Positions 6,285-33,984 of a DNA stretch of 34,920 bases are shown one piece after another (the stretch's first letter is position 1; every line of letters starts with the position of its first letter). The position numbers and the translations under genes are program-made. The notes under the pieces were generated by a model. It saw only the letters and a program-made list of their open reading frames with translations, searched no databases and was not told the DNA's origin. The stretch comes from a bacterium (lineage in GTDB: Bacteria > Patescibacteriota > Minisyncoccia > Phycocordibacterales > GCA-002787175): assembly GCA_030689285.1 (NCBI GenBank), contig JAUYJM010000009.1:1-34920 (forward strand), read 5' to 3'.

Positions 6285-6309
6285 GTAAACGCGTTAATAC
6301 GGAGGCGTA

Positions 6310-6332
6310 ATACGGAGGCGTTGCCTCCGTAT
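6310..6332 (+). terminator. Perfect 10-bp hairpin after the surface-protein gene (no U-tract)
   Basis: ATACGGAGGCgttGCCTCCGTAT, preceded by a direct duplicate of taatacggaggcg. Confidence 0.35.
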
Positions 6333-6408
6333 GACAATCAAATCTCGAAATTTTCAATGCCACAAACTCGTGAGCAGTGTTCGCCCCTCCTTGCTTGCTT
6401 TCTTGTTT

Positions 6409-6463
6409 GAAAATTGACTCATTGTAAATTGATTGAAAATTGTAAATTGTAAAATTGAAAATT
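6409..6463. repeat. AAAATTG(T/A)AAA word array
   Basis: The sequence is gaaaattgactcattgtaaattgattgaaaattgtaaattgtaaaattgaaaatt. The same words occur at 20586-20612 (inverted) and 20951-20975. Confidence 0.6.
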
Positions 6464-6493: not shown

Positions 6494-6587
6494 GCACCCC
6501 CTTTGCTCCACCGCTAAGCTTGGGCGACATGCGGTATGAAAGGGGGAATAGGAGGAAAAAATCCTCCGTCACATAAGAGTATGACAC
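6494..6587. repeat. Mosaic repeat modules X+Y immediately upstream of lepA
   Basis: 6494-6550 matches the reverse complement of 29801-29857. 6551-6587 matches the reverse complement of 29858-29893. The two modules sit in swapped order at the two loci. Confidence 0.65.
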
Positions 6588-6631
6588 GAGAGGAGTTTTT
6601 TAAAGACGGATTTTCTGGTATTGTGTGTCGT

Positions 6632-8506
6632 ATGAGAAACATTAGAAACTTCTGCATTATCGCTCACATAGACCACGGCAAATCCACGCTTGCCGACAGA
6701 ATGCTTCAGGTTACCGGCACGATTCCGGAACGCAAGATGCGCGAGCAGGTTTTGGATGATATGGAGCTTGAGCGCGAGAGGGGTATTACCATAAAAATGA
6801 CCCCAGTCCGTATGATTTGGAGGCCAAATCATACGGACAAAATTCGCAATCCTTCATCTTTAATCCGTAACGAAGAAAGTCAAGGATTAAGGGTTAAAGA
6901 TGAAGGATTATCAGATTCAGAATGCTTCATTCTGAATCTGATTGACACTCCGGGTCACATTGACTTTGCTTACGAAGTTTCGCGTGCCCTAAAAGCGGTG
7001 GAAGGGGCGATTCTTCTCGTGGACTCCACTCAAGGCGTGCAGGCGCAAACGCTTTCGGTTTTAAGTATGGCAAAAAGCGCCGGACTGACTATAATCCCAG
7101 TCGTGTCAAAGGTGGATTCTCCCTACGCTCGCATAAGCGAATCAAAAGAAGAAATAGCAAAAATTTTAGAGTGTGACACAAAAGACATTTTGGAAGTATC
7201 GGGAAAGACCGGACAAGGCGTGACGGAGCTTTTGGACGTAATCGTACAAAAAGTGCCACCCCCGAGTTTTTTACCTGCAAGAGAAGACAACCAACTGCAA
7301 GCATTGGTATTTGACTTTGAATATTCCACTCATACGGGGGTAATAGTATATGTGAGAATTTTCAGCGGCAACGTAACGGGCAAAGAAAAACTTAGTTTCG
7401 CGGTCGCAAAGCGTGATTTTTCTCCAATTGAAATAGGAATATTTTCGCCTGACAGGGTTTTGTCAAAGCAGATTGCTTCCGGGGAAATAGGTTATATTGT
7501 GACGGGAATAAAAGAGCCCGGCGTGGCTTCAGTCGGAGACACGGTTGTTTTGTCAAAAGGGTTGCTTAAAGCTCTACCCGGATACGAGAGGCCGTCTCCG
7601 GTGGTTTGGGCCAGTGTGTATCCTGAAGATGCGGACGATTTCAACAGCTTAAGGCAGGCATTGGGGAAACTCCGTCTTTCAGATTCATCTTTTTCTTTTG
7701 AAGAAGAGTCATCGGGACTTTTGGGCAGGGGTTTTAGGTGCGGATTCTTGGGAATGCTCCACTTGGAGATTGTTACAGAACGGCTTCGCAGAGAATTTAA
7801 TCTGGAACTTGTGGTTACGACTCCGAGTATTACATACGAAATTACCACAAAAAGGGGCGAAAAAATAACTGCGTATTCGCCAATTCAGTTTCCCAGTTAT
7901 GGTGATATATCAGGTATAAAAGAGCCTTGGGTCAAGATACGCGTAATCACTCCGGCGGACTATCTTGGAGATATAACCCAGCTTTTATATAAGCATGAAG
8001 CGGTTTTGGGTGATACTTCAGATTTTGGAGATAACCGTTCGGAGATTTACGCCGAAATGCCTTTGAGAGAGCTTATGCGAGGTTTTTTTGACGAACTCAA
8101 AAGCGTTTCATCTGGTTTCGCCTCTCTTTCTTACGAGATGGCGGAGCTTAAGGACGCGGATGTTCTTCGTATGGATATACTTGTGGCGGACGAAATCGTA
8201 CCGGCTTTTTCAAGAGTTGTGTCAAAAAGAAAGGCGGAGGAAGAATCGGAATCGGCGGTTGAGAAGCTTTTTTCCATACTGCCCCGCCAAATGTTTGTGA
8301 CAAAAATTCAGGCTACCGCGATGGGCAGAATAATATCGTCAAAAACCTTGTCGGCTCTCAAAAAAGACGTTACAGGTTATCTTTACGGAGGAGATATTAC
8401 AAGAAAGAAAAAATTGTGGGAAAAACAAAAAAAGGGAAAAAAGAAGATGAAGGAAAGAGGAAAAGTCAACATCCCTCACGATGTGTTTGTGAAGATGATG
8501 AAATAG
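6632..8506 (+). CDS. lepA: Elongation factor 4 (LepA)
   Basis: MRNIRNFCIIAHIDHGKSTLADR, DTPGHIDF, GFRCGFLGMLHLEI and the C-terminal YGGDITRKKKLWEKQKKGKKKMK are LepA hallmarks. The start was chosen at the conserved MRNIRNF; an alternative ATG is at 6581. The upstream part of the ORF lies in repeat modules. Confidence 0.9.
   Translation: MRNIRNFCIIAHIDHGKSTLADRMLQVTGTIPERKMREQVLDDMELERERGITIKMTPVRMIWRPNHTDKIRNPSSLIRNEESQGLRVKDEGLSDSECFILNLIDTPGHIDFAYEVSRALKAVEGAILLVDSTQGVQAQTLSVLSMAKSAGLTIIPVVSKVDSPYARISESKEEIAKILECDTKDILEVSGKTGQGVTELLDVIVQKVPPPSFLPAREDNQLQALVFDFEYSTHTGVIVYVRIFSGNVTGKEKLSFAVAKRDFSPIEIGIFSPDRVLSKQIASGEIGYIVTGIKEPGVASVGDTVVLSKGLLKALPGYERPSPVVWASVYPEDADDFNSLRQALGKLRLSDSSFSFEEESSGLLGRGFRCGFLGMLHLEIVTERLRREFNLELVVTTPSITYEITTKRGEKITAYSPIQFPSYGDISGIKEPWVKIRVITPADYLGDITQLLYKHEAVLGDTSDFGDNRSEIYAEMPLRELMRGFFDELKSVSSGFASLSYEMAELKDADVLRMDILVADEIVPAFSRVVSKRKAEEESESAVEKLFSILPRQMFVTKIQATAMGRIISSKTLSALKKDVTGYLYGGDITRKKKLWEKQKKGKKKMKERGKVNIPHDVFVKMMK
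6808..6940 (+). repeat. Three consecutive palindromes embedded in-frame in the lepA G domain
   Basis: 6808-6836 has a perfect 11-bp stem (ccgtatgattt/aaatcatacgg). 6848-6909 is an imperfect long stem (aatccttcatctttaa.../...ttaaagatgaaggatt). 6912-6940 has a perfect 13-bp stem (cagattcagaatg/cattctgaatctg). The RGITIK to DTPGH segment is about 27 aa longer than in E. coli or B. subtilis LepA. Confidence 0.7.
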
Positions 8507-8833: not shown

Positions 8834-9095
8834 GAACTTCTTTTGTTTTTTGTTAAATTGCATTAAATTAAAGCTGAAAAAATATCTATTGTAATGTAAT
8901 ATAATATCTGTGAATTACGAAATGTCTTTTTCGGCGAGGTTTTCGTGGCGCACGGAGATTTTTTACTAAAAATCTTCCTCTCTCCGGCGCCGGCCGCGCC
9001 TCAGAAGGCGCCTCTCAAACCTCGCCTCAACACCATTTCGTAATTCAAGGATAATATATAAAAAGCGTTGAAGCAATGCCTTTGAGCCAAAATTT

Positions 9096-9565: not shown

Positions 9566-9805
9566 AAAATAACGAGCGAAGCGAGTATATTTTTCGGGTA
9601 TAAAAAGCTCCCTAAGGAGCTTTTTAAGGGAAGCGAAGCCTTATTGAGCATAAAATTGAGTCCGTATTCGGACGAAAATTTTATCCAATAAGGGGACTGA
9701 ACATGTAATGTTCGATTCCCGCTACCCGCAAAAATAACGAGCGAAGCGAGTATATTTTTCGGGTATAAAAAGCTCCCTAAGGAGCTTTTTAAGGGAAGCG
9801 AAGCC
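9546..9805 (+). repeat. Direct duplication of the tRNA-Gly 3' end plus downstream flank (two identical-looking 95-nt copies, 9546-9640 and 9711-9805) around a 70-nt hairpin spacer
   Basis: Both copies read ttcgattcccgctacccgcaaaaataacgagcgaagcgagtatatttttcgggtataaaaagctccctaaggagctttttaagggaagcgaagcc. The spacer 9641-9710 folds as ttattg..ataaaatt..gtccgtattcggac..aaattttat..caataa. Confidence 0.9.
9767..9790. terminator. Bidirectional hairpin terminator (a copy also at 9602-9625)
   Basis: AAAAAGCTCCctaaGGAGCTTTTT lies 36 nt beyond the stop of the minus-strand PfkB gene. The first copy follows tRNA-Gly. Confidence 0.6.
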
Positions 9806-12738: not shown

Positions 12739-12938
12739 GCACGGTTTACGTTCACTTGAGAGCTAAGCTCCCAAGTGAAGCTTCCAAAAAACATTGCGTC
12801 TACACCTGCCGATTATCGGCCGCAAAGAATCTAAAATGTGACGTCCCCGCTTTCCAATGCTTCTTCAAAGCATTCCAGGGGGAGGTATTTCGTTGTTAAC
12901 AACGAAATAATCGCGCAAGTTTGATTACATTCAGAATT

Positions 12939-12975
12939 AAAACGGCTAATACTGCAGTATTAGCCGTTTCTTGTT
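12939..12975 (+). terminator. Rho-independent terminator closing a hairpin-dense 3' region
   Basis: AACGGCTAATACtgcaGTATTAGCCGTT followed by TCTTGTT. Confidence 0.6.
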
Positions 12976-20585: not shown

Positions 20586-20975
20586 GAATTTACAATTTTC
20601 AATTTTGCAATCCCAGTACCAAAGAAATATGAATTTCTTGCTACGGGACAGGTTTTCAATGAATTTTATTGTCTTAATGACGAATTTCCAATGACAAATG
20701 ACAAATCAATGACCAATGAGATTTAATGACAAATGATTGGTTTCCAACTCTAATCGTATTTACGTTTAGCTATGGCTGAAAATATCAGCTTTACAAAAAA
20801 TAATTATTTCCACGCCACATTTTCCCGTTCTTTCTGATAAGTCGTAATTCATTTTGTCATTTTGATTTTGACATTGATTTGTCATTGGAAATTTGTCATT
20901 TGAAATTGACTCGTCATTGCCTGCCCCGTGAGAGCGAATCGATTTTACGGGGAAAATTGTAAAATTGAAATTTTT
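20586..20975. repeat. ~390-bp nested imperfect inverted repeat (MITE-like) filling the GT2 / PEGA intergenic region
   Basis: Outer arms are the aaaattg words at 20586-20612 (inverted) and 20951-20975. Next arms are ctacgggacagg (20641) versus cctgccccgtgag (20919). Inner arms are the TGACAAAT words at 20676-20735 versus 20851-20925 (aatttccaatgacaaat...caatgac). Confidence 0.65.
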
Positions 20976-21902: not shown

Positions 21903-22718
21903 ATGGTTGATTTTCAATCAAAAGGAAAGATACATCCTATAGAGAGGGCTATATATGATAGTCGAGCTATCTTTAAACGACTCGGCTTTGATGTTGCAAT
22001 CGGACCGGAAATGGAAGATGAGTGGCATAACTTTGACGCGCTTAACATTCCAAAAGAGCATCCGGCTAGAGATATGCAGGACACTTTTTGGCTGAAACAG
22101 CCAAAAAGTGAATCCTTAATCGTCAATCCTTCATCCTTAAATGAAGAACCAAAAAGTGAACCAGAGGTAGATTCTTTGAGTAAAGGATTAAAGATTAAGG
22201 ATAAAGGATTATTATTAAGAACTCATACAAGTCCTGTTCAGATACGTTATATTGAACAGAAATTGAAAGAAGGCATAGATCCGCCATATAAAATAATAGC
22301 GCCGGGAAAAATTTTTAGAAACGAGGCTACTGACGCGACTCATGAGGCGCAGTTTTTTCAGATTGAAGGGCTTTACGTAAATAAAAAAGTCAATATGGCA
22401 GAGCTTAAGGGCACACTGCTTTACTTTTTGAAGGAATTTTTCGGTGATGAAGAAATTGAGGTCAGGTTTCGGCCAAGCTTTTTTGCTTTTACGGAACCGT
22501 CCGCGGAAGTGGATATGCACTCTAAGGATAAGTGGCTTGAAATGGGGGGAGCCGGACTGGTCCACCCCAATGTTTTGAAAAACGCCGGACTCGGCGGCGA
22601 TAAGTACCAAGGATTCGCCTTCGGTATGGGGCTTGACCGGCTGGTGATGCTCAAGTACGGCATACCGGATGTCAGGATGTTTTATAACGGCGACTTGAGG
22701 CTGGTGAATCAGTTTTAA
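21903..22718 (+). CDS. pheS: Phenylalanine--tRNA ligase alpha subunit (minimal form lacking the N-terminal coiled coil)
   Basis: HPIERAI, HNFDALNIPKEHPARDMQDTFW, LLRTHTSPVQIRY, FRNEATDATHEAQFFQIEG and GFAFGMGLDRLVML. Confidence 0.9.
   Translation: MVDFQSKGKIHPIERAIYDSRAIFKRLGFDVAIGPEMEDEWHNFDALNIPKEHPARDMQDTFWLKQPKSESLIVNPSSLNEEPKSEPEVDSLSKGLKIKDKGLLLRTHTSPVQIRYIEQKLKEGIDPPYKIIAPGKIFRNEATDATHEAQFFQIEGLYVNKKVNMAELKGTLLYFLKEFFGDEEIEVRFRPSFFAFTEPSAEVDMHSKDKWLEMGGAGLVHPNVLKNAGLGGDKYQGFAFGMGLDRLVMLKYGIPDVRMFYNGDLRLVNQF
22084..22210 (+). repeat. Palindromic element embedded in-frame in pheS, homologous to the lepA element
   Basis: 22084-22108 has a perfect 11-bp stem (ctttttggctg/cagccaaaaag). 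The stretches caatccttcatccttaa and aaggattaaagattaaggataaaggatta are near-identical to lepA 6847-6863 and 6882-6910. They are read in the same frame (NPSSL ... GLKIKDKGL). The DTFW to LLRTHTS spacing is 39 aa versus 4 aa in E. coli PheS. Confidence 0.7.
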
Positions 22719-26096: not shown

Positions 26097-26127
26097 AAAA
26101 CGGCTAAATTAAATTTAGCCGTTTTTT
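26097..26127 (+). terminator. Rho-independent terminator of pheT
   Basis: AAAACGGCTAAATTaaATTTAGCCGTTTTTT. Confidence 0.75.
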
Positions 26128-26202: not shown

Positions 26203-26305
26203 ATACAGTTCATGAAAGAGGGCATAATGGCTTTCTCTGTGTTTGAATTTGTGATTTGAATATTGTCTGGAGCTTGTTTCTTGGAGATTGAAATTTATAA
26301 AAGTT

Positions 26306-29300
26306 ATGGTTAAACCAACAGAAAAGGACAAAAAATCGAACGGACCCTCCTCCGCTAAAGCTACAGCGGGCAAGGCGGGTCATCATTACAGCGCGCAGGA
26401 CATTCAGGTTTTGGAGGGGCTTGAGCCGGTACGGAAGCGTCCGGGTATGTATATAGGCACTACCGGTCCAGACGGACTCCACCATCTCGTAACCGAGATT
26501 TTTGACAATTCCCGCGATGAAGCTATGGGCGGTTTTGCCAATGATGTGGAAATCGTTCTTTTGCCGGATAACCGCGTGAGGGTTGCGGACAACGGTCGCG
26601 GTATTCCCGTAGATACTCACAAACAGACAAAAGTTTCCGCTTTGGAGACGATTATGACTACTCTCCATGCCGGAGGTAAATTTGGAGGAGAAGGATACAA
26701 GGTTTCAGGAGGACTTCACGGAGTCGGCGCTTCTGTCGTAAACGCTCTATCCGTCCATATGAAAGTCACGGTGCACCGAGATGGCGGTGTGTACACGCAA
26801 GAGTACACGCGTGGCAAGAAAGACGCGACGGTTAAAAAAGTCGGCAAAAGCGACAAACAAGGAACCATCGTCACGTTTCAGCCAGACGAACAGATTTTTA
26901 AAGAGATAGGATTCAATTTTGACAGAATTGTCTCTCATATGAGAGAGCAAGCATATCTTGTAAAAGGTCTCCGTATTTCAGTAATTGATGCTCGGGAACT
27001 GCAGCTTGAAGACGGAGGAACAGACAGTATTTTTTATTTCCGAGAGCTCGGCCTAGACGCTAAATCGCAATCCTTCTGTTTTGAAGGAGGGCTTTTATCA
27101 TTGGTTAAATTTTACAATCAGCTGTGGAAACCTGTCCATAAGAAAATTTTTTATATTGAAAAAGCGGGCGAAGGAGTGGAATCTGTGGAAGTGGCTTTGC
27201 AATATGTAGACGACATATCCTCGCGGATTATGGCGTTTGCAAACAACATCGCAAATCCTGAAGGGGGAACGCACTTGACAGGTTTTAAAACCGCTCTTAC
27301 TCGGACATTGAACAACTACGCTCGTAAAAATAACGTAGTAAGGGAAAGCGAGGAAAACTTTACTGGAGATGACGTGCTTGAGGGACTTACTGCCGTTATA
27401 TCCGTAAAACTTAGGGAGATTCAATTTGAAGGGCAGACAAAAGCAAAGCTAGGCAGTGTAGAGGCGCAAGGAGCCGTGACTGCCGTTTTTGGTGACGCTT
27501 TCTCCGGATTTCTTGAAGAGAATCCTGAAGACGCGCGGGCCATTATAGGAAAAGCCCTCCTTGCTCTCAAAGCTAGAAAAGCGGCCAAGGCGGCAAAAGA
27601 CAGCGTCCTTAGAAAAGGGGCGCTTGAAGGAATGACACTGCCCGGCAAACTGGCCGACTGTGAGACGAAAAATGCATCGGAGTCCGAACTCTTTATAGTG
27701 GAGGGAGATTCGGCCGGTGGATGTTTTGACGGTGATACAAAAGTCGCTCTTGTTGATGGGAGAAATCTTTCATTTAAGGAGTTAATTGAAGAGCATAAAG
27801 AGGGTAAACAGAATTTTTGCTATACGATTGATTCTCAAGATATAAAGATAGCACCCATTATGCATCCGAGGGTTACCAAACAAAATGCTGAAGTTGTAAA
27901 AGTCATTCTGGATAACAGAGAAGAGATTATATGTACTCCGGAACATAGATTTATGATTAGAGACGGTTCATACAAACAGGCGATAAACTTAACGGAAGAT
28001 GACTCTCTTATGCCTCTCGTTCGTAAACTTTCCGAAATTCGCGGAAGGATTACAATAAAGGGCTATGAAATGGTTCTAAACCCAGAAAATTCTCATTGGA
28101 AATTTACTCATGTCCTTTCTGATGATTACAATTTGGGACGGGAAACATACGTCAAGGAAAAGAATACTGTCATCCACCATAAAGATTTCAATAAATTAAA
28201 CAATCATCCCGATAATCTGGTTCGTATGGATCACTGGGCTCATTTTTGGTATCACACGACATGCCTTGAAGAGACAATCCATCGTGCTGATGTGAAGGAA
28301 AAATGCCGAAAAATCAGACAGACCTCTGAATATCGCGAAAAAATAAGCAAAGTGATGCTAAAACCGGAAGTGCGTGAGCTCTTGAGCGAGCGAGCGAAAA
28401 AGCAGTGGGAAAATCCGAAATATAAAAAATTCATGACCGCTAAATTCCTTGAATTTTACGAAAACAACGAGCAATATCGTGAAGAGAACAACAAGCGTCT
28501 AAATAAAGAACAGAAAAAATACTGGTCCTTGGGTGAAAATAAAGTCAAACAGTCAAAACGCGTGACTAAATTCTTTGAGGATCATCCCGAACATAAAAAA
28601 TTCTTGAAGGACTTATCGGAAACGCAATGGAAAGACGAGTCTTTAATTAGATGGCGAAGAGAGGAAACTAAAAAACAGTGGACTCCGGAGTTTAGGGCAA
28701 AAAGAAAAATTGCATATGCTCGCACGTATCTTAATAAGGCGCTTGCCTCCTTGTATGAAATATATAAAAGAAAAGGAGCTGTTGATGAGGTTTCTTATAA
28801 TGAGCTTCGCAGGGAGAAAAACGATAAGTCCTTAATCCGTTTTGAAACTATTTGCAATAGGTTCTTTGAAGGAAACGAGAACGCTTTTAAGGAGGCAATC
28901 ATGAATTTTAACCATAGGATTAAAAAGGTTGAAGTTCTTTCTAAGAAAATAGATGTGTACGACATTGAGGTCCCACAAACTCACAATTTCGCCCTTGCGA
29001 GCGGGGTATTTGTTCATAATTCCGGAAAAATGGGAAGGGACAGAAGAACTCAAGCCGTACTGCCTCTTAAAGGTAAAATCTTAAACGTGGAAAGAGCGCG
29101 GCTGGACAAAATTCTCGGCTTTGCGGAAATAAAATCTCTGGTTATCGCGCTCGGAACCGCCATAGGAGACACGTTTGACGTATCAAAACTTCGCTATCAC
29201 AAAATTATAATCGCCACGGATGCCGATACGGACGGCGGGCATATACGCACTTTGCTTCTAACTCTGTTTTACAGGTACTTCAAGCCGCTTATTGAGGGGG

Positions 29301-29740
29301 GCTTTATATATATAGCTCAACCGCCGCTTTATAAAATAAAAAGAGGCAAAGAAGTCTTTTACTTTTTTACCGAAGAGGAAAAAAGTTCTTTCTATGAGAG
29401 AGAAGGAATTGAAGTAAAGGAGGAGGAAGAAACGGAAGGAACCGACGACCGAGAACCTTCAAATGGCACAGAGGAAATGGCAGAAGGGGAAGAAGACGCA
29501 TCGGCGGCAAAAGGAAAAACGCAGAAAATACAGGTGCAAAGATACAAAGGTCTGGGCGAAATGAATCCTGAAGAGCTTTGGGAGACAACGATGGATCCCG
29601 AAAAAAGAATTTTAAAACAGGTAACCATAGAGGATGCTAACGAAGCAGACAAGGTATTTGACATCTTGATGGGTACGGATGTACCGTCAAGAAAGTCTTT
29701 CATTCAGTCAAACGCCACGAAAGCGACATTGGATATATAA
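26306..29740 (+). CDS. gyrB: DNA gyrase subunit B precursor, interrupted by an intein
   Basis: YSAQDIQVLEGLEPVRKRPGMYIG and GGLHGVGASVVNALS are present. ELFIVEGDSAGG is followed by the intein, then SGKMGRDRRTQAVLPLKGKILNVE. Further on are IIIATDADTDGGHI, RYKGLGEM and the C-terminal LDI. Confidence 0.9.
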   Translation: MVKPTEKDKKSNGPSSAKATAGKAGHHYSAQDIQVLEGLEPVRKRPGMYIGTTGPDGLHHLVTEIFDNSRDEAMGGFANDVEIVLLPDNRVRVADNGRGIPVDTHKQTKVSALETIMTTLHAGGKFGGEGYKVSGGLHGVGASVVNALSVHMKVTVHRDGGVYTQEYTRGKKDATVKKVGKSDKQGTIVTFQPDEQIFKEIGFNFDRIVSHMREQAYLVKGLRISVIDARELQLEDGGTDSIFYFRELGLDAKSQSFCFEGGLLSLVKFYNQLWKPVHKKIFYIEKAGEGVESVEVALQYVDDISSRIMAFANNIANPEGGTHLTGFKTALTRTLNNYARKNNVVRESEENFTGDDVLEGLTAVISVKLREIQFEGQTKAKLGSVEAQGAVTAVFGDAFSGFLEENPEDARAIIGKALLALKARKAAKAAKDSVLRKGALEGMTLPGKLADCETKNASESELFIVEGDSAGGCFDGDTKVALVDGRNLSFKELIEEHKEGKQNFCYTIDSQDIKIAPIMHPRVTKQNAEVVKVILDNREEIICTPEHRFMIRDGSYKQAINLTEDDSLMPLVRKLSEIRGRITIKGYEMVLNPENSHWKFTHVLSDDYNLGRETYVKEKNTVIHHKDFNKLNNHPDNLVRMDHWAHFWYHTTCLEETIHRADVKEKCRKIRQTSEYREKISKVMLKPEVRELLSERAKKQWENPKYKKFMTAKFLEFYENNEQYREENNKRLNKEQKKYWSLGENKVKQSKRVTKFFEDHPEHKKFLKDLSETQWKDESLIRWRREETKKQWTPEFRAKRKIAYARTYLNKALASLYEIYKRKGAVDEVSYNELRREKNDKSLIRFETICNRFFEGNENAFKEAIMNFNHRIKKVEVLSKKIDVYDIEVPQTHNFALASGVFVHNSGKMGRDRRTQAVLPLKGKILNVERARLDKILGFAEIKSLVIALGTAIGDTFDVSKLRYHKIIIATDADTDGGHIRTLLLTLFYRYFKPLIEGGFIYIAQPPLYKIKRGKEVFYFFTEEEKSSFYEREGIEVKEEEETEGTDDREPSNGTEEMAEGEEDASAAKGKTQKIQVQRYKGLGEMNPEELWETTMDPEKRILKQVTIEDANEADKVFDILMGTDVPSRKSFIQSNATKATLDI
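27722..29020 (+). mobile_element. 433-aa intein with HNH homing-endonuclease module in the GyrB Toprim motif (EGDSAGG / S)
   Basis: It starts CFDGDTKVALVDGR (block A, Cys1) and ends NFALASGVFVHN followed by Ser (+1). The internal HHKDFNKLNNHPDNLVRMDHWAH is an HNH motif (about 28168-28260). The terminal blocks closely resemble the Synechocystis GyrB intein as recalled. Confidence 0.9.
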
Positions 29741-29794: not shown

Positions 29795-30240
29795 CACCTC
29801 TTATTCCCCCTTTCCTACCGCGTGCCGCCAGAGCTTTAGCGGTGGCGCAAAGGGGTGTCACATTCTTATGTGACGGAGGATGAAAATCCCTCCTGCATAA
29901 GAATGCAGTGCTCCCTTTACTCCCACCCCTCACCCTCGCCCCGTTAGAAACTTTGTTTCTAACGGGGCTCGCTGACTCGGGAGGTCAAAAGTATTTTTCT
30001 GGCTGGAAAAATCTTTCAACCCTGCCTCGCGCCGTCGCGCTCCGGCCTTGCGGAAGCTCCAAGTGTTCGCTTCCTCACCCCTCTGGCAGGGGAGCATGGG
30101 AGAATAAATCCCTCCCCCTAGCCCCGTTAGAAGCGAAGTTTCTAACGGGGCTCGCCGACTCGGGTACTCCCTTCCCGCGCTACGCCGTAGGATTCGGCGA
30201 GGCGAGTACAAAAGGGAGAATTAAAACCATTCATCGGGGG
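29795..30240. repeat. ~445-bp intergenic region built entirely of mosaic hairpin modules
   Basis: Modules X (29801-29857) and Y (29858-29893) match 6494-6587 inverted. Two copies of the hairpin CCCCGTTAGAA..TTCTAACGGGG are at 29939-29967 and 30122-30150. 29986-30079 matches 1611-1704 inverted. 30196-30228 (ggcgaggcgagtacaaaagggagaatta) recurs at 15286-15312 and 34131-34165. Confidence 0.8.
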
Positions 30241-30627: not shown

Positions 30628-30650
30628 CGATTGACCTCTAATAATGAGCG

Positions 30651-30679
30651 CCGGCGAGATTTATTCTCGCCGGTTTTTT
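30651..30679 (+). terminator. Rho-independent terminator
   Basis: CCGGCGAGatttattCTCGCCGG followed by TTTTTT. Confidence 0.8.
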
Positions 30680-30687
30680 GTTATACT
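30679..30687 (+). promoter_or_regulatory. Extended -10 (TGtTATACT) placing the predicted TSS on the dnaE ATG (leaderless candidate)
   Basis: TGTTATACT ends 6 nt before the ATG at 30694. No Shine-Dalgarno sequence is present. Confidence 0.35.
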
Positions 30688-30693
30688 GATGCA

Positions 30694-33600
30694 ATGTCCG
30701 GATTTGCGCATCTCCATACTCATAGCCATTATTCGCTTCTCTCCGGCCTTCCGAAAATTCCGGAGCTTGTCAAGGCGGCTAGAGATGACGGACAGACCGC
30801 TCTTGCTCTTACGGATAACGGAAACCTCTATGGCGCCATAGAATTCTACAAAGAATGCGGAAAACAAGGCATAAAACCGCTCATAGGCATTGATGCTTAC
30901 GTTGCGGCGCGCACTCGGCATGATAAGCAGGCGGGAATAGACAATCGCCGCACGCGTCTTATACTTCTCGCGAAAAATCAGCAAGGTTATAAAAATCTCA
31001 TAAAACTCGTCACCGACTCGCATTTGGAGGGCTTTTACTACAAGCCGCGCGTTGACCGCGAGCTTTTGGAAAAGTACTCTGAAGGTCTTATCGCTATCTC
31101 TCCTTCATTCAGTTCTGAAATCGTAAAAAGCTTGCAAATTGACGATTTTGAAAAGGCGGTCCAAATCGCGAATTGGTACAGACAGATATTCGGCAAAGAA
31201 AATTTTTTCCTTGAAATTACGCGGCATCCGGAAATAGACGGTCACGAAAAAACGATGGAGAAACTCGTCTCTTTCGCCAAAGACAATGTTTTGCCTCTTG
31301 TGGCCTCTCAAGACGTATATTACCTATCTCCCGAAGACAGGAAAGCCAGAAACACTCTGACTTTGGTTATGAGCAACCGTGAGCTTTCCGACATAAGCGA
31401 GGGAGGAGAGGCCGCTGACTTTTCGTTTATAAGCCAAAAACAGGCAATAAATCTTTTTCAAGATATTCCAGACGCGCTCAAAAATACGATAAAGATAGCG
31501 GAGATGTGCGACTTGAATCTGGAACTCGGTAATTGGCTTTTTCCAAATTATGTAGTAGAAAGCAAGCTTTCTTATGACGATGAACTTAGGAAAGTCGTTT
31601 TTGAGGGTTTTGATTCGCGCGGCGTTGAGAGAAGCAAAGAGACACTGGAGAGGGTTGAGTATGAACTGTCGGTTATAAAAGCGAAGGGTTACGCGCCATA
31701 TTTTCTGGTGGTTGGAGACTTGATACGAGAAGCGCATAAAAGAGGAATCCTAACCACGATCAGAGGGTCGGTTGCCGGTTCTTTGGTTACTTATCTTGCC
31801 AAAATTACGAATGTAAACCCGATAGTATACAAACTTCCATTTGAAAGGTTTTTAAATCCCGAGAGGCCTTCGGCGCCGGATATAGATATGGACTATGCCG
31901 ATAACAGGAGGGACGAAATGATTGAATATGCCAAGGAAAAATACGGCAGAACTTTTGTGGCGCAGATCGGGACTTTCGGCACTATGATGGCGCGTGGCAG
32001 TGTGCGTGATGTGGCTCGCGCTCTCGGATTTGAGTACGGCGTGGGAGACAGAATCGCAAAGCTCATACCGATGGGCTCCCAAGGGTTTCCAATGTCCATA
32101 GACAGGGCGCTCGAAATTGTCGGCGAACTTAAGGAGATTTACAAAAAGGAAAAAGACGCACGGGAGATAATAGACACGGCCAGAAAAATTGAAGGTTGTG
32201 CCAGACATATTTCAGTCCATGCCGCCGGAGTAGTCATTTCTCCCGTTCCTCTTACAGAAGTTACTCCGCTTCAGCTTGACCCCAAGGGCGAAGGCAAAGT
32301 CATCACCCAGTACGATATGTACTCCATAGACGAAAACAACGCGGGACTTTTAAAGTTTGATTTTTTGGGAATAAAAAATCTGTCAATTCTGGCTGAAGCA
32401 GTGGCTTTGACGGAAAAAATGGAAGGAGTAAAAATAGACATTGAAAACGTGCCCGTGGATGACAAGAAAACTTTTGAAATGCTTGCTCTGGGCGAGACCG
32501 GCGGACTTTTTCAGCTAAACGGAAGCGGTATGACGCGGTTTCTAAAGGACCTAAAACCAAACAACATCCACGATATAAACGCTATGGTGGCGCTTTATCG
32601 TCCGGGACCCATGGAGTCTATTCCCGAATACATTCAAAGAAAGCACAATCCTCGGCTTGTGAAATATCTTGATTCAAGAATGTCAGACATTCTTAGCGAA
32701 TCGTACGGTGTTATAACCTATCAGGATGATGTGCTTATGCTCGCCATCAAGCTCGCTGGATACTCGTGGCTTGAGGTAGATAAACTGCGAAAAGCTATGG
32801 GTAAAAAAATTCCCAAAGAAATGGAGGCGCAGAAAAGAAAGCTCATTGACGGGTTTATGGGTTTTGGGAAACTGTCTAAAGAAAAAGGGGATAAACTTTG
32901 GAGTCTTATAGAGCCATTTGCCGCCTATGGTTTCAATAAAGCCCATGCCGCAAGCTATGGCAAAGTAGCGTATCAGACGGCGTATATGAAAGCAAACTTT
33001 CCAGCTATTTATATGTCAGCGGTTTTAACGGCTGATTCCGGAGACATTGATAAAATCGGAGAAATCATCGCCGAATGCGACAGAATGGGAATACCGGTGT
33101 TGCCGCCAGATATCAATGAAAGTTACTCCGGCTTTACCGTAGTAAAACTGGAAAATTCCAAGCTCCAAGAAACAAGTTCCAAACAAATTCCAAATCCCAA
33201 ACATAATACATTAAACCCCGAACATCTTTCTGAACGCTATACGCTAAACGCTGACTCTTCTGACCGTATCCGCTTTGGACTGACGACTATTAAAAACTTT
33301 GGGGAAGGAATCGCAAACGCGATAATTAAAGAACGCGAAGAAAATGGAAAGTTTAAGTCGCTGGGCGATTTTTTGTCGCGCATTAAAGACAAAAATCTAA
33401 ACAAGAAGTCCGTTGAAGCTCTTATAAAAGCCGGCGCGGTGGACGCCTTCGCGGACAGAGGAGTTATGTTTGCAAATTTGGAACAAATTCTGGAATTCCA
33501 CAAAGAAAAAGCTCAAGCGGATGGAAGCCAAGACTCGCTTTTCGGTTCTTTGCCTGAAGGCCAGAGCGACGATATTGTCCTTAAGGACTCTCCGATGGCC

Positions 33601-33984
33601 TCGCAGTCTGAGAAACTCTCATGGGAAAAGGAGCTTTTAGGACTTTATATTTCCGGCCATCCGCTTGATAAATACCGCGCCGTTTTGGGAAAACGTGAAG
33701 ACAACATAAAAAAAATAAAGGAAGAAGCCAAAGAAGGAATGACAACCGTTATAGGAGGGATTATAGAAGAAATGAAGCCGATACTTACCAAGAAAAACGA
33801 GCAAATGGCCTTTGCGCGGCTTGCCGATTTTACCGGAGCCATAGAGGTTGTGATTTTTCCGAGGGTGCTCGCGGAGTTTAAGAATATATTGAAGGCGGAC
33901 AAATGTGTGGCAATAAAAGGACGCGTTTCAAATAGAAACGGCGAGGTGAGCATTATTGCCGAGAAAGCGAAAGAACTTGCGTAG
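30694..33984 (+). CDS. dnaE: DNA polymerase III alpha subunit
   Basis: The PHP N-terminus is MSGFAHLHTHSHYSLLSG. Also present are PDIDMDY, GLLKFDFLGIKNLS, FNKAHAASYG and a C-terminal OB fold. The start is at the conserved FAHLH region. Confidence 0.9.
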   Translation: MSGFAHLHTHSHYSLLSGLPKIPELVKAARDDGQTALALTDNGNLYGAIEFYKECGKQGIKPLIGIDAYVAARTRHDKQAGIDNRRTRLILLAKNQQGYKNLIKLVTDSHLEGFYYKPRVDRELLEKYSEGLIAISPSFSSEIVKSLQIDDFEKAVQIANWYRQIFGKENFFLEITRHPEIDGHEKTMEKLVSFAKDNVLPLVASQDVYYLSPEDRKARNTLTLVMSNRELSDISEGGEAADFSFISQKQAINLFQDIPDALKNTIKIAEMCDLNLELGNWLFPNYVVESKLSYDDELRKVVFEGFDSRGVERSKETLERVEYELSVIKAKGYAPYFLVVGDLIREAHKRGILTTIRGSVAGSLVTYLAKITNVNPIVYKLPFERFLNPERPSAPDIDMDYADNRRDEMIEYAKEKYGRTFVAQIGTFGTMMARGSVRDVARALGFEYGVGDRIAKLIPMGSQGFPMSIDRALEIVGELKEIYKKEKDAREIIDTARKIEGCARHISVHAAGVVISPVPLTEVTPLQLDPKGEGKVITQYDMYSIDENNAGLLKFDFLGIKNLSILAEAVALTEKMEGVKIDIENVPVDDKKTFEMLALGETGGLFQLNGSGMTRFLKDLKPNNIHDINAMVALYRPGPMESIPEYIQRKHNPRLVKYLDSRMSDILSESYGVITYQDDVLMLAIKLAGYSWLEVDKLRKAMGKKIPKEMEAQKRKLIDGFMGFGKLSKEKGDKLWSLIEPFAAYGFNKAHAASYGKVAYQTAYMKANFPAIYMSAVLTADSGDIDKIGEIIAECDRMGIPVLPPDINESYSGFTVVKLENSKLQETSSKQIPNPKHNTLNPEHLSERYTLNADSSDRIRFGLTTIKNFGEGIANAIIKEREENGKFKSLGDFLSRIKDKNLNKKSVEALIKAGAVDAFADRGVMFANLEQILEFHKEKAQADGSQDSLFGSLPEGQSDDIVLKDSPMASQSEKLSWEKELLGLYISGHPLDKYRAVLGKREDNIKKIKEEAKEGMTTVIGGIIEEMKPILTKKNEQMAFARLADFTGAIEVVIFPRVLAEFKNILKADKCVAIKGRVSNRNGEVSIIAEKAKELA

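What the first reader, a model, noticed from the sequence alone, without database searches (positions are those of the whole stretch)
6808..6940. In-frame triple-palindrome insertion in the LepA GTPase domain, with junction hairpins built from host codons
Between the conserved RGITIK (G2) and DTPGH (G3) motifs, lepA carries about 27 more residues than the E. coli or B. subtilis proteins as recalled. The extra DNA consists almost entirely of three back-to-back palindromes. They are 6808-6836 (perfect 11-bp stem), 6848-6909 (long imperfect stem) and 6912-6940 (perfect 13-bp stem). The outer arm of the right flanking hairpin, cattctgaatctg, encodes the conserved FILNL next to IDTPGH. Its inner arm is an exact inverted copy of that host sequence. 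The left hairpin has the same arrangement. Coding DNA does not normally tolerate 11-13 bp perfect palindromes, so this looks like a mobile palindromic element that inserted in-frame, as Rickettsia palindromic elements do. The inverted copies of flanking host sequence suggest a hairpin or fold-back intermediate at insertion.
Basis: partly seen in the sequence, partly recalled or inferred. Interest (0 to 1): 0.8.

Follow-up and report, generated by a model that had tools for sequence, protein, structure and literature searches.

The report
In-frame palindromic repeat inside lepA
A small palindromic repeat built from 7-base units sits in frame in a surface loop of the essential GTPase LepA of a Parcubacteria bacterium, with a second copy in PheS. 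Its borders carry perfect hairpins copied from the host's own codons, and these stay perfect as the host codons change, which I did not find described for the Rickettsia palindromic elements or in the literature I searched.

Summary
lepA carries 29 extra codons between the G2 and G3 motifs. They consist of a 15-bp perfect hairpin, a 62-bp imperfect palindrome and a second 15-bp perfect hairpin. Shuffled sequence gives about 0.03 such hairpins per window.

The centre is a repeat family, (AATCCTT)n-loop-(AAGGATT)n. A second in-frame, same-frame copy lies in pheS at 22111-22211, with its own 13-bp hairpin made from the local DTFWL codons. Intergenic copies occur in other CPR genomes.

In Parcubacteria orthologues, the same LepA loop (57 of 120 clusters) and the same PheS loop (76 of 116) carry inserts from several 7-mer-array families. 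Uninserted relatives lack both the insert and the hairpins.

Junction stems co-vary with host synonymous codons: 5 of 13 pairs (pheS) and 3 of 15 (lepA right) changed on both sides. G·U pairs are rare, and both strands fold equally well. This points to DNA-level reverse-complement copying (template switching) that creates the stems and keeps them matched.

AlphaFold2 models the insert as a low-confidence loop at a beta-hairpin tip.

Verdict: an RPE-like in-frame palindromic element with a new architecture. The mobilisation mechanism is inferred, not shown.

The parts
6632..8506 (+). lepA (elongation factor 4) coding sequence. The ORF opens at 6536, but homologues begin near MRNIRNF at 6632.
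   Evidence: (PF00009, PF06421 and related domains; 62-71% identity to Parcubacteria LepA).
6806..6838 (+). Left junction hairpin. The outer arm gtccgtatgatttgg is the host codons VRMIW. The loop is agg. The inner arm ccaaatcatacggac is its exact reverse complement and is translated as PNHTD.
   Evidence: Orthologous hairpins with compensatory changes appear.
6839..6847 (+). 9-nt spacer (aaaattcgc) between the left hairpin and the central element.
6848..6909 (+). Central type A element. Three AATCCTT-type heptamers, a 13-16 nt loop and four AAGGATT-type heptamers. Translated as NPSSLIRNEESQGLRVKDEGL.
   Evidence: period 7, 4.1 copies; only 1 of 6 frames is open.
6910..6942 (+). Right junction hairpin. 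The inner arm atcagattcagaatg is translated as SDSE(C). The loop is ctt. The outer arm cattctgaatctgat is the host codons (F)ILNLI.
   Evidence: Covariation.
21903..22718 (+). pheS (phenylalanyl-tRNA synthetase alpha subunit), host of the second copy.
   Evidence: (PF01409). Residues 66-102 have no counterpart in E. coli PheS (3pco).
22082..22110 (+). pheS junction hairpin. The outer arm cactttttggctg is the host codons (D)TFWL. The loop is aaa, the host K codon. The inner arm cagccaaaaagtg is translated as QPKS.
   Evidence: Covariation.
22111..22211 (+). Second type A element. Four AATCCTT-type heptamers, a 44-nt loop and four AAGGATT-type heptamers. It is in the same frame as the lepA copy (SLIVNPSSL...KGLKIKDKGL). 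There is no right junction hairpin.

Best explanation
The insert is a composite of two parts.

(1) The centre. It is a copy of a dispersed repeat family of Parcubacteria and other CPR bacteria. The family consists of two facing arrays of degenerate 7-nt units, (AATCCTT)n - variable loop - (AAGGATT)n.
- The copies I retrieved outside genes lie between genes.
- Copies survive inside essential genes only where they land in the one stop-free frame and in a permissive surface loop. There they are translated as a disordered loop. In lepA this is the tip of the beta-hairpin between G2 and G3; in pheS it is a loop with almost no counterpart in E. coli PheS.

(2) The junction hairpins. They are not part of the element.
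- They are reverse-complement copies of the adjacent host codons.
- They are made by DNA-level template switching (snap-back or strand-switch synthesis) at the edge of the structured repeat.
- The same process keeps re-copying the constrained host arm into the free inner arm. The stems therefore stay perfectly Watson-Crick while host synonymous sites drift.

Shown: composite anatomy; a second copy in the window; family distribution; insertion hot spots; empty sites; compensatory evolution after insertion; a low-confidence loop in the model.

Inferred: template switching as both origin and maintenance; how the centre moves (unknown transposase, templated break repair, or recombination between alleles); translation of the insert.
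For: Anatomy and chance.

Second copy in pheS, same orientation and frame.

Open frames: 1 of 6 for the lepA copy, 2 of 6 for the pheS copy.

Intergenic relatives: Saccharibacteria, Parcubacteria GWA2_49_9, Doudnabacteria and JGI metagenome contigs, none with host-derived hairpins.

Hot spots: 57 of 120 LepA clusters and 76 of 116 PheS clusters carry inserts at these two loops. The same families occur at both loops.

Hairpin tied to insert: the junction-hairpin peptide signature is present in 32 of 57 inserted against 1 of 63 uninserted LepA. For PheS it is 36 of 68 against 0 of 40.

Empty site: DNA without a hairpin in L054.

Same architecture (host-arm hairpin, then a 7-mer array) in ileS, an aminotransferase and tsaD of relatives.

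Covariation:
- pheS stem: 98% of cells paired, 5 of 13 pairs changed on both sides.
- lepA right stem: 97% paired, 3 of 15 pairs changed on both sides.
- lepA left stem: host gtc-cgt, gtt-cgg, gtg-cgg and agg are matched by gac-acg, aac-ccg, cac-ccg and cct in the inner arm.
- The inner-arm peptide (HTD, HPNG, HPHG) follows the host's synonymous codon choice.

DNA level rather than mRNA level: sense and antisense strands fold equally well. I counted about 4 G·U pairs among the junction-stem pairs.

Published mechanism: replication template switching makes perfect hairpins from adjacent sequence and produces multi-base compensatory changes (PMC8794818).

Surface loop: AlphaFold2 gives strands 58-63 and 99-105, with residues 69-93 at pLDDT below 50.
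Against: - No enzyme or intermediate is identified.
- No target-site duplication is visible (inspection of the flanks).
- Peptide and profile searches found no further in-frame type A copies in other proteins. Strict DNA patterns found few copies: about 6 true relatives among the 32 loci from species-representative genomes and 4 intergenic copies (plus 2 hits on the known lepA) among the 8 metagenome loci.
- Selection for a functional hairpin would produce the same covariation.
- Intergenic copies lack junction hairpins, which a purely fork-stalling model does not obviously predict.
- The prevalence figures come from the 120 best hits to insert-bearing queries, so they may be inflated.
- Translation is inferred from frame conservation only.
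Confidence: 0.55

Rival explanations
1. One-time insertion scar. The element inserted through a hairpin or fold-back intermediate, such as hairpin-capped break ends opened off-centre or snap-back priming during break repair. The inverted host copies are fossils of that single event.
For: Inner arms are exact reverse complements that start at the host/insert boundary, with minimal 3-nt loops. Hairpins are tightly associated with the presence of an insert. Intergenic copies lack them.
Against: Stems are still perfect in lineages whose LepA proteins are only 62-67% identical. Host and inner arms changed together within a clade that shares an orthologous insert. The same hairpin sits next to centres of different families. 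A fossil would have decayed in its unconstrained inner arm.
Confidence: 0.15
2. Functional structure under selection. The hairpins are kept because a structure is needed, either in the mRNA (pausing, stability, insulating the strong central stem) or in DNA (a protein-binding cruciform). Compensatory changes are then fixed by selection.
For: Strong covariation. The loop centre is conserved at the pheS K codon in four lineages.
Against: There is no strand asymmetry in folding energy. G·U pairs are almost absent and the stems are 11-16 bp of perfect Watson-Crick pairing, unlike typical functional RNA stems. Many orthologues work without any hairpin. The right-hand hairpin is dispensable in L051 and in pheS. 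No Rfam family matches.
Confidence: 0.12
3. Homing-like spread between alleles. The whole insert, with its hairpins, moves between lepA (or pheS) alleles of different lineages by homologous recombination in the conserved flanks. For the ORF-bearing relatives this may be promoted by the in-frame PD-(D/E)XK nuclease. This would explain the recurrent presence at exactly one loop.
For: Insert families are interleaved with uninserted sequences on a LepA tree, and the window's LepA groups away from the main type A clade (a crude NJ tree). Codon identity in the ~60 conserved flanking codons is raised for window-L044 (0.57 against 0.35 for the rest of the gene) and window-L001 (0.50 against 0.29). Eight LepA clusters carry PF13366 in frame at this loop.
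Against: Other pairs show no rise in flank identity. It does not explain copies in unrelated genes or intergenic copies. Nuclease activity is untested. The window element has no ORF.
Confidence: 0.12
4. Local growth without mobility. Permissive loops accumulate junk by 7-nt slippage plus template switching. Similar arrays at different loci arise by convergence or ectopic conversion.
For: The window is rich in period-7 arrays of many different units. Some inserts are direct arrays only, as in tsaD of L003.
Against: The lepA and pheS copies share 17 of 17 bases (CAATCCTTCATCYTTAA, one Y position) and 19 of 19 bases (three R positions) of arm sequence. By my inspection of the copies, most also share loop-edge motifs (TAAC...AGTCAAGG), including copies in other phyla. 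A 7-nt unit is disfavoured by frame in coding DNA.
Confidence: 0.05
5. Assembly or amplification artefact, such as chimeric inverted joins.
For: None, apart from the palindromic nature of the sequence.
Against: Orthologous, lineage-specific versions occur in independent ENA, JGI, NCBI and Logan assemblies. All are in frame.
Confidence: 0.01

Closest known systems
Rickettsia palindromic elements (RPEs; Ogata et al. 2000, as summarised in PMC10969869)
   Same: Short palindromic repeats inserted in frame into unrelated housekeeping genes. They are translated as extra peptide compatible with the fold. Several families exist and each genome has multiple copies.
   Different: The host is a different phylum (CPR/Parcubacteria). 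The elements are shorter (62-100 bp against about 100-150 bp). The arms are arrays of 7-nt units with a variable loop. The borders carry hairpins copied from host codons that co-evolve with the host arm; the RPE passage I read does not mention such hairpins. The same two loops are hit in a large share of the lineages sampled. Sequence homology to RPEs was not tested.
Template-switch mutations and quasipalindrome correction (Ripley and Lovett models; Monttinen and Loytynoja 2022, PMC8794818)
   Same: A reverse-complement copy of adjacent sequence creates a perfect stem in one event. Multi-base compensatory changes keep the stem perfect.
   Different: Described there for RNA genes and mutation clusters. 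Here it occurs systematically at the boundary between constrained codons and an inserted repeat array, inside translated sequence. The inner arm's peptide is dictated by the host's synonymous codons.
Bacterial MITEs and REP/BIME-type intergenic palindromes
   Same: Small, non-coding, hairpin-forming and dispersed. The copies retrieved outside genes are intergenic.
   Different: No target-site duplication is seen. No cognate IS or RAYT is identified. The arms are tandem heptamers rather than a unique terminal inverted repeat. The loop sequence is not conserved.
Snap-back templated insertions in break repair, and P nucleotides at V(D)J or hAT excision joints (from my own knowledge)
   Same: Inverted copies of the flank lie directly at a junction.
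   Different: Those are usually a few to about 30 nt and decay as neutral scars. Here the stems are 11-16 bp, found on one or both sides, and maintained over long divergence. The enzymes concerned are not known in CPR bacteria.
Inteins and free-standing homing endonuclease insertions
   Same: Selfish insertions at conserved sites of essential genes. The same site is hit recurrently across lineages. Relatives of this insert carry a nuclease ORF in frame.
   Different: The insert is only 29 aa, which is too short for an intein splicing domain, so it would have to remain in the protein.

Membership tests
Rickettsia palindromic elements (RPE) | Sequence belongs to one of the RPE families defined in Rickettsia. 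| not tested
The host is Parcubacteria.
Rickettsia palindromic elements (RPE) | Palindromic repeat inserted in frame in protein-coding genes, with multiple copies in unrelated genes. | tested here: met
   Copies in lepA and pheS, same frame.
Rickettsia palindromic elements (RPE) | The inserted peptide lies at the protein surface and is compatible with the fold. | tested here: met
   In the AlphaFold2 model the insert is a loop with pLDDT below 50 between strands 58-63 and 99-105. Gaps against solved LepA and PheS structures fall at loops.
MITE (miniature inverted-repeat transposable element) | Terminal inverted repeats. | tested here: met
   23-nt arms at 91% complementarity in lepA and 20-nt arms at 90% in pheS.
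MITE (miniature inverted-repeat transposable element) | Target-site duplication flanking the element. | tested here: not met
   No direct repeat flanks the coding or intergenic copies, by inspection of the flanks. Inverted copies of the flank are found instead.
MITE (miniature inverted-repeat transposable element) | A cognate autonomous element with the same ends that encodes a transposase. | tested here: inconclusive
   None was found for type A. A different array family has an ORF-bearing form (PF13366 PD-(D/E)XK) at the same LepA loop. Its function is untested.
Template-switch-generated hairpin | One arm is an exact reverse complement of directly adjacent sequence. | tested here: met
   15-, 15- and 13-bp perfect stems whose outer arm is host codons.
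Template-switch-generated hairpin | Multi-base compensatory changes that keep the stem perfect. | tested here: met
   (5 of 13 and 3 of 15 pairs changed on both sides; 97-98% of cells paired). Left-stem comparisons.
Template-switch-generated hairpin | Single-event origin shown by ancestral reconstruction (four-point model). | not testable with these tools
   This needs dense sampling of close relatives.
Intein | Splicing domain. | not tested
   No domain search was run on the insert. It is only 29 aa, too short to hold an intein splicing domain, and the AlphaFold2 model shows it as an unstructured loop. By contrast, gyrB in the same window does carry an intein.
Known structured RNA (Rfam) | Match to a curated covariance model. 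| tested here: not met
   Only two tRNAs reach the gathering score in the window. Nothing credible matches at 6700-7050.

The most novel reading that the evidence does not exclude
CPR bacteria harbour an undescribed class of selfish elements: facing arrays of 7-nt units, some carrying a PD-(D/E)XK nuclease gene. These colonise the same permissive loops of essential genes such as lepA, pheS, ileS and tsaD. Their insertion or persistence depends on host-templated arms. The reverse-complement copies of host codons would then not be passive by-products. They would be part of the mechanism, for example by pairing with the target flanks to guide integration or homing, or by forming the structure that a nuclease recognises.
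Probability: 0.15. Interest if true: 0.9.

Novelty: new variant of a known kind. Interest (0 to 1): 0.72.

Why it matters
- In-frame selfish palindromes were known to me mainly from Rickettsia. Finding them in CPR bacteria, at the same loops of core translation proteins in about half of the related protein clusters sampled, suggests they contribute to the unexplained extra segments of CPR proteins.
- The junction hairpins are a clear natural case where a reverse-complement copy of constrained codons is kept perfect over long divergence. The amino acids of the inner arm are dictated by the host's synonymous codon choice.
- This gives a direct handle on template switching as an evolutionary force inside genes.
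- It also warns that covariation alone does not prove a functional RNA structure.
- The relatives that carry a PD-(D/E)XK ORF in frame suggest a testable nuclease-driven mobility system.

Tried and rejected
- Peptide searches for further in-frame type A copies. The word-indexed search with an alignment of insert peptides found nothing (some searches were parameter errors). The full HMMER profile search gave 3 weak, uninformative hits.
- Strict DNA patterns in public collections. The genome scan returned 32 loci, of which about 6 are true relatives. The rest are an unrelated Bacteriovoracaceae palindrome, an Aliarcobacter repeat or chance matches. The metagenome scan returned 8 loci: 2 are the known lepA and 4 are intergenic relatives. 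The viral scan gave 1 unrelated hit.
- mRNA-level structure. A hint that non-Watson-Crick pairs in the pheS stems were sense-strand G·T pairs did not hold. Sense and antisense folding energies are equal or favour the antisense strand.
- Rfam: no family matches.
- Translational bypass or RNA excision. I rejected these as unnecessary. The insert is stop-free in the host frame and each family keeps the same frame at different genes. This is inference only.
- Assembly artefact: rejected because of independent assemblies.
- Literature. No paper was found on in-frame palindromic inserts in CPR bacteria. Absence from that library is not proof of novelty.
Full report
**1. What is in the sequence**

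The ORF 6536-8506 (+) is lepA. Its product carries PF00009, PF06421 and related domains, and the closest proteins are elongation factor 4 of Parcubacteria/Paceibacterota at 62-71% identity.

Between GITIK (G2) and DTPGH (G3) the DNA reads as follows:
- gtccgtatgatttgg-AGG-ccaaatcatacggac at 6806-6838, a 15-bp perfect stem;
- a 9-nt spacer;
- a central palindrome at 6848-6909, with 23-nt arms at 91% complementarity;
- atcagattcagaatg-CTT-cattctgaatctgat at 6910-6942, a 15-bp perfect stem.

The outer arm of each flanking hairpin is host coding sequence: VRMIW on the left and (F)ILNLI on the right. The inner arm is its exact reverse complement and is translated as PNHTD and SDSE.

In a census of the whole window, perfect hairpins of >=13 bp number 7 against a mean of 0.03 in dinucleotide shuffles. 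The only ones inside solid genes are these two and one in pheS.

**2. It is an insertion**

- The stretch between the two motifs is 49 aa here. It is 20 aa in 50 of the 120 best LepA clusters, for example MTPVRMSHTLNAVPYTLNLI.
- Against the solved Aquifex LepA, query residues 66-94 have no counterpart.
- The DNA of an uninserted relative (L054, on a 674-kb contig) has 90 nt where the window has 177 nt, and it has no hairpin.
- An AlphaFold2 model built on 72 homologues places the insert between strands 58-63 and 99-105. Residues 69-93 have pLDDT below 50. This is a low-confidence, probably disordered loop at the tip of a beta-hairpin.

**3. The centre is a repeat family built from 7-nt units**

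- The right arm reads AAGGATT AAGGGTT AAAGATG AAGGATT and the left arm reads AATCCTT CATCTTT AATCCGT. Tandem Repeats Finder reports period 7.
- A second copy lies in pheS of the same window at 22111-22211. It has four heptamers, a 44-nt loop and four heptamers.
- The two copies match the patterns CAATCCTTCATCYTTAA and AAGGATTAARGRTTAARGA without mismatch. The shuffle expectation is 0.15-0.31 matches.
- Both copies are read in the same frame (NPSSL ... GL[KR][IV]KD[EK]GL). For the lepA copy this is the only stop-free frame of six. For the pheS copy it is one of two.
- Relative to E. coli PheS (3pco), residues 66-102 are extra.

Scans of public collections with strict patterns found few copies, but they are clear:
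- Saccharibacteria (L005, L014, L020);
- Parcubacteria GWA2_49_9 (L019);
- Doudnabacteria (L032);
- a Pseudobdellovibrionaceae-labelled bin (L024);
- JGI metagenome contigs (L038, L039, L041, L043).

By my inspection of these copies, most share loop-edge motifs (TAAC...AGTCAAGG). All lie between genes and none has host-derived flanking hairpins.

**4. Both loops are insertion hot spots for several such families**

- 57 of the 120 LepA clusters and 76 of the 116 PheS clusters that could be scored carry extra residues at exactly these loops.
- The inserts fall into recurring families seen at both genes:
  - type A (NP[SL]SL..QGLKIKD);
  - a TTCGAA-type family (SEIRNPKSE, EIRNSKF);
  - a CAATTTC-type family (NFQFSIFNFQ);
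  - a family with arms translated as TQTNAD...SASSQR.
- At LepA the last family also exists with an in-frame PF13366 PD-(D/E)XK domain of about 165 aa.
- The DNA of representatives shows that the centres are again facing arrays of short units.
- The window holds further period-7 arrays: two intergenic elements and a probable in-frame one in dnaE.
- On a crude NJ tree of LepA with the loop masked, inserted and uninserted sequences and the different families are interleaved.
- These prevalence figures come from the best hits to insert-bearing queries, so they may be somewhat inflated.

**5. The junction hairpins are host-templated, general and maintained**

The same architecture, host-codon arm then short loop then reverse-complement arm then array, occurs at pheS in the window. 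There it reads cactttttggctg-AAA-cagccaaaaagtg, and the outer arm is DTFWL.

It also occurs in relatives at three other genes:
- ileS (host IPVY);
- a class V aminotransferase (host KIA);
- tsaD (host HIFSA).

In each of these cases the hairpin is on the upstream side in the sense orientation. A second, downstream hairpin was seen only in lepA.

Hairpin peptide signatures track the inserts:
- LepA: 32 of 57 inserted against 1 of 63 uninserted;
- PheS: 36 of 68 inserted against 0 of 40 uninserted.

Across lineages the stems follow the host's codon choice.
- At the left lepA stem, host gtc-cgt (window, L044), gtt-cgg (L001, L003), gtg-cgg (L051) and agg (L050) are matched by gac-acg, aac-ccg, cac-ccg and cct in the inner arm. 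The inner-arm peptide therefore reads HTD, HPNG, HPHG and so on.
- In the pheS stem, 98% of cells pair and 5 of 13 pairs changed on both sides. In the right lepA stem the figures are 97% and 3 of 15. The slid controls collapse to 25-56% paired.
- L001, L003, L051 and L053 share an orthologous type A centre and, for most of them, gene order. They still differ by compensated stem changes. At least part of the covariation therefore arose after the insertion.
- The same hairpins also flank a different centre in L044 and L049.
- A 7-bp version persists in L050, which has no array.

**6. DNA level rather than RNA level**

- Whole inserts fold as well or better on the antisense strand.
- I counted about 4 G·U pairs among the junction-stem pairs.
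- The stems are 11-16 perfect Watson-Crick pairs.
- No Rfam family matches.
- Replication template switching is documented to create perfect stems from adjacent sequence and to produce multi-base compensatory changes in single events (PMC8794818).

I therefore favour the following account. A structured repeat array is inserted in a permissive loop. Template switching at its edge copies the neighbouring host codons in reverse complement. Repeated switching then re-copies the protein-constrained host arm into the unconstrained inner arm.

This account is an inference. Selection for a structure would also give covariation. The absence of such hairpins at intergenic copies remains unexplained.

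**7. How the centre moves is unknown**

- No target-site duplication and no cognate transposase were seen.
- Possible routes are an unidentified transposase, templated break repair that copies an intergenic array, or recombination between alleles.
- The last route has weak support. Codon identity in the conserved flanks is raised between the window and L044 (0.57 against 0.35) and between the window and L001 (0.50 against 0.29), but not in other pairs. The window's LepA also groups away from the main type A clade.
- The PF13366-bearing relatives suggest a nuclease-assisted, homing-like route for at least one family. Nothing is tested.

**8. Comparison and verdict**

Functionally this is the Rickettsia RPE phenomenon, an in-frame palindromic repeat tolerated in surface loops (PMC10969869), in a different phylum. 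It adds three features that I did not find described:
- arms made of 7-nt arrays;
- recurrent occupation of the same loops by several families;
- co-evolving junction hairpins copied from host codons.

Membership in the RPE families was not tested. MITE membership fails on target-site duplication. Searches of the paper library found no description in CPR bacteria.

I rate it a new variant of a known kind, with interest 0.72. The anatomy and the mobile, in-frame nature of the element are well supported. The template-switch mechanism is the best-supported explanation but remains unproven.

Noticed in passing
LepA homologues P0007, P0010, P0012, P0017, P0019, P0058, P0084, P0111; DNA in L046 6157-6741: An in-frame PF13366 (PDDEXK_3) nuclease domain of about 165 aa sits at exactly the same LepA loop. 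It is flanked by facing arrays (CAGACAAACG... / ...CTGCG). Arms-only versions of this family occur in LepA and PheS of other lineages. It may be the autonomous form of one array family.
   Followed up: partly
window 33150-33260 (inside dnaE, 30631-33984): A low-complexity in-frame stretch, ENSKLQETSSKQIPNPKHNTLNPEHLSERYTLNADSS, built on A[AG]NTCCA heptamers, lies just before the conserved IRFGLTTIKN. The Pfam HHH_6 match is stretched (122 residues for 84 profile positions). This is probably a third in-frame array insert, without a perfect hairpin.
   Followed up: partly
window 20676-20907: A large intergenic element: an (AATGACA)n array faces a (TGTCATT)n array across about 130 nt. It lies between a glycosyltransferase ORF and a PEGA-domain ORF. 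It uses a different heptamer family from the lepA element.
   Followed up: partly
window 6295-6463 (upstream of lepA): The intergenic region holds a tandem TAATACGGAGGCG repeat, a 10-bp hairpin and a period-7 array (ATTGTAA/ATTGAAA, 6421-6463) that pairs with 6349-6365.
   Followed up: no
window 26288-29740: gyrB carries an intein (PF14890, residues 487-911). It is a second kind of selfish insertion in an essential gene of the same window.
   Followed up: no
window 9601-9626 and 9766-9791; 29938-29968 and 30120-30152; 12886-12969; 26097-26125: Repeated perfect hairpins lie outside solid genes. The pair taaaaagctcc-CTAA-ggagcttttta occurs twice, 165 nt apart, after tRNA-Gly. The gccccgttagaa hairpin occurs twice in an unannotated 123-aa ORF between gyrB and dnaE. 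There are also zero-loop palindromes of 12 and 15 bp.
   Followed up: no
window 8899-9059 (downstream of lepA): Nested long inverted repeats (26-nt arms at 88% and 19-nt arms at 84%) lie in the lepA / ORF 9096 spacer. There is no Rfam match.
   Followed up: no
L051 2169-2381 (LepA P0100): A GC-rich palindrome (ccgcccgaac...gttcagtcgggcgg) is nested inside the left arm of the type A element. This copy has no right junction hairpin.
   Followed up: partly
L001 12288-12317 and 11705-11726 (ileS); L003 20220-20255 (tsaD); L044 5226-5252 (aminotransferase): More host-arm hairpins are followed by heptamer arrays (AAATCAC, TTAACTT, AATTCGA) in other essential genes of relatives. In tsaD the insert replaces the native loop rather than adding to it, as the comparison with L054 shows.
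   Followed up: partly
L004, L008, L009, L018, L021, L023, L026, L027 (Bacteriovoracaceae and 'delta proteobacterium' MAGs): An unrelated, highly repeated palindromic element (ggtccgttaaAATCCTTTATCTTGCAGCC...GGCTGCAAGATAAAGGATTttaacggacc) was picked up by the pattern scan, with several copies per MAG.
   Followed up: no
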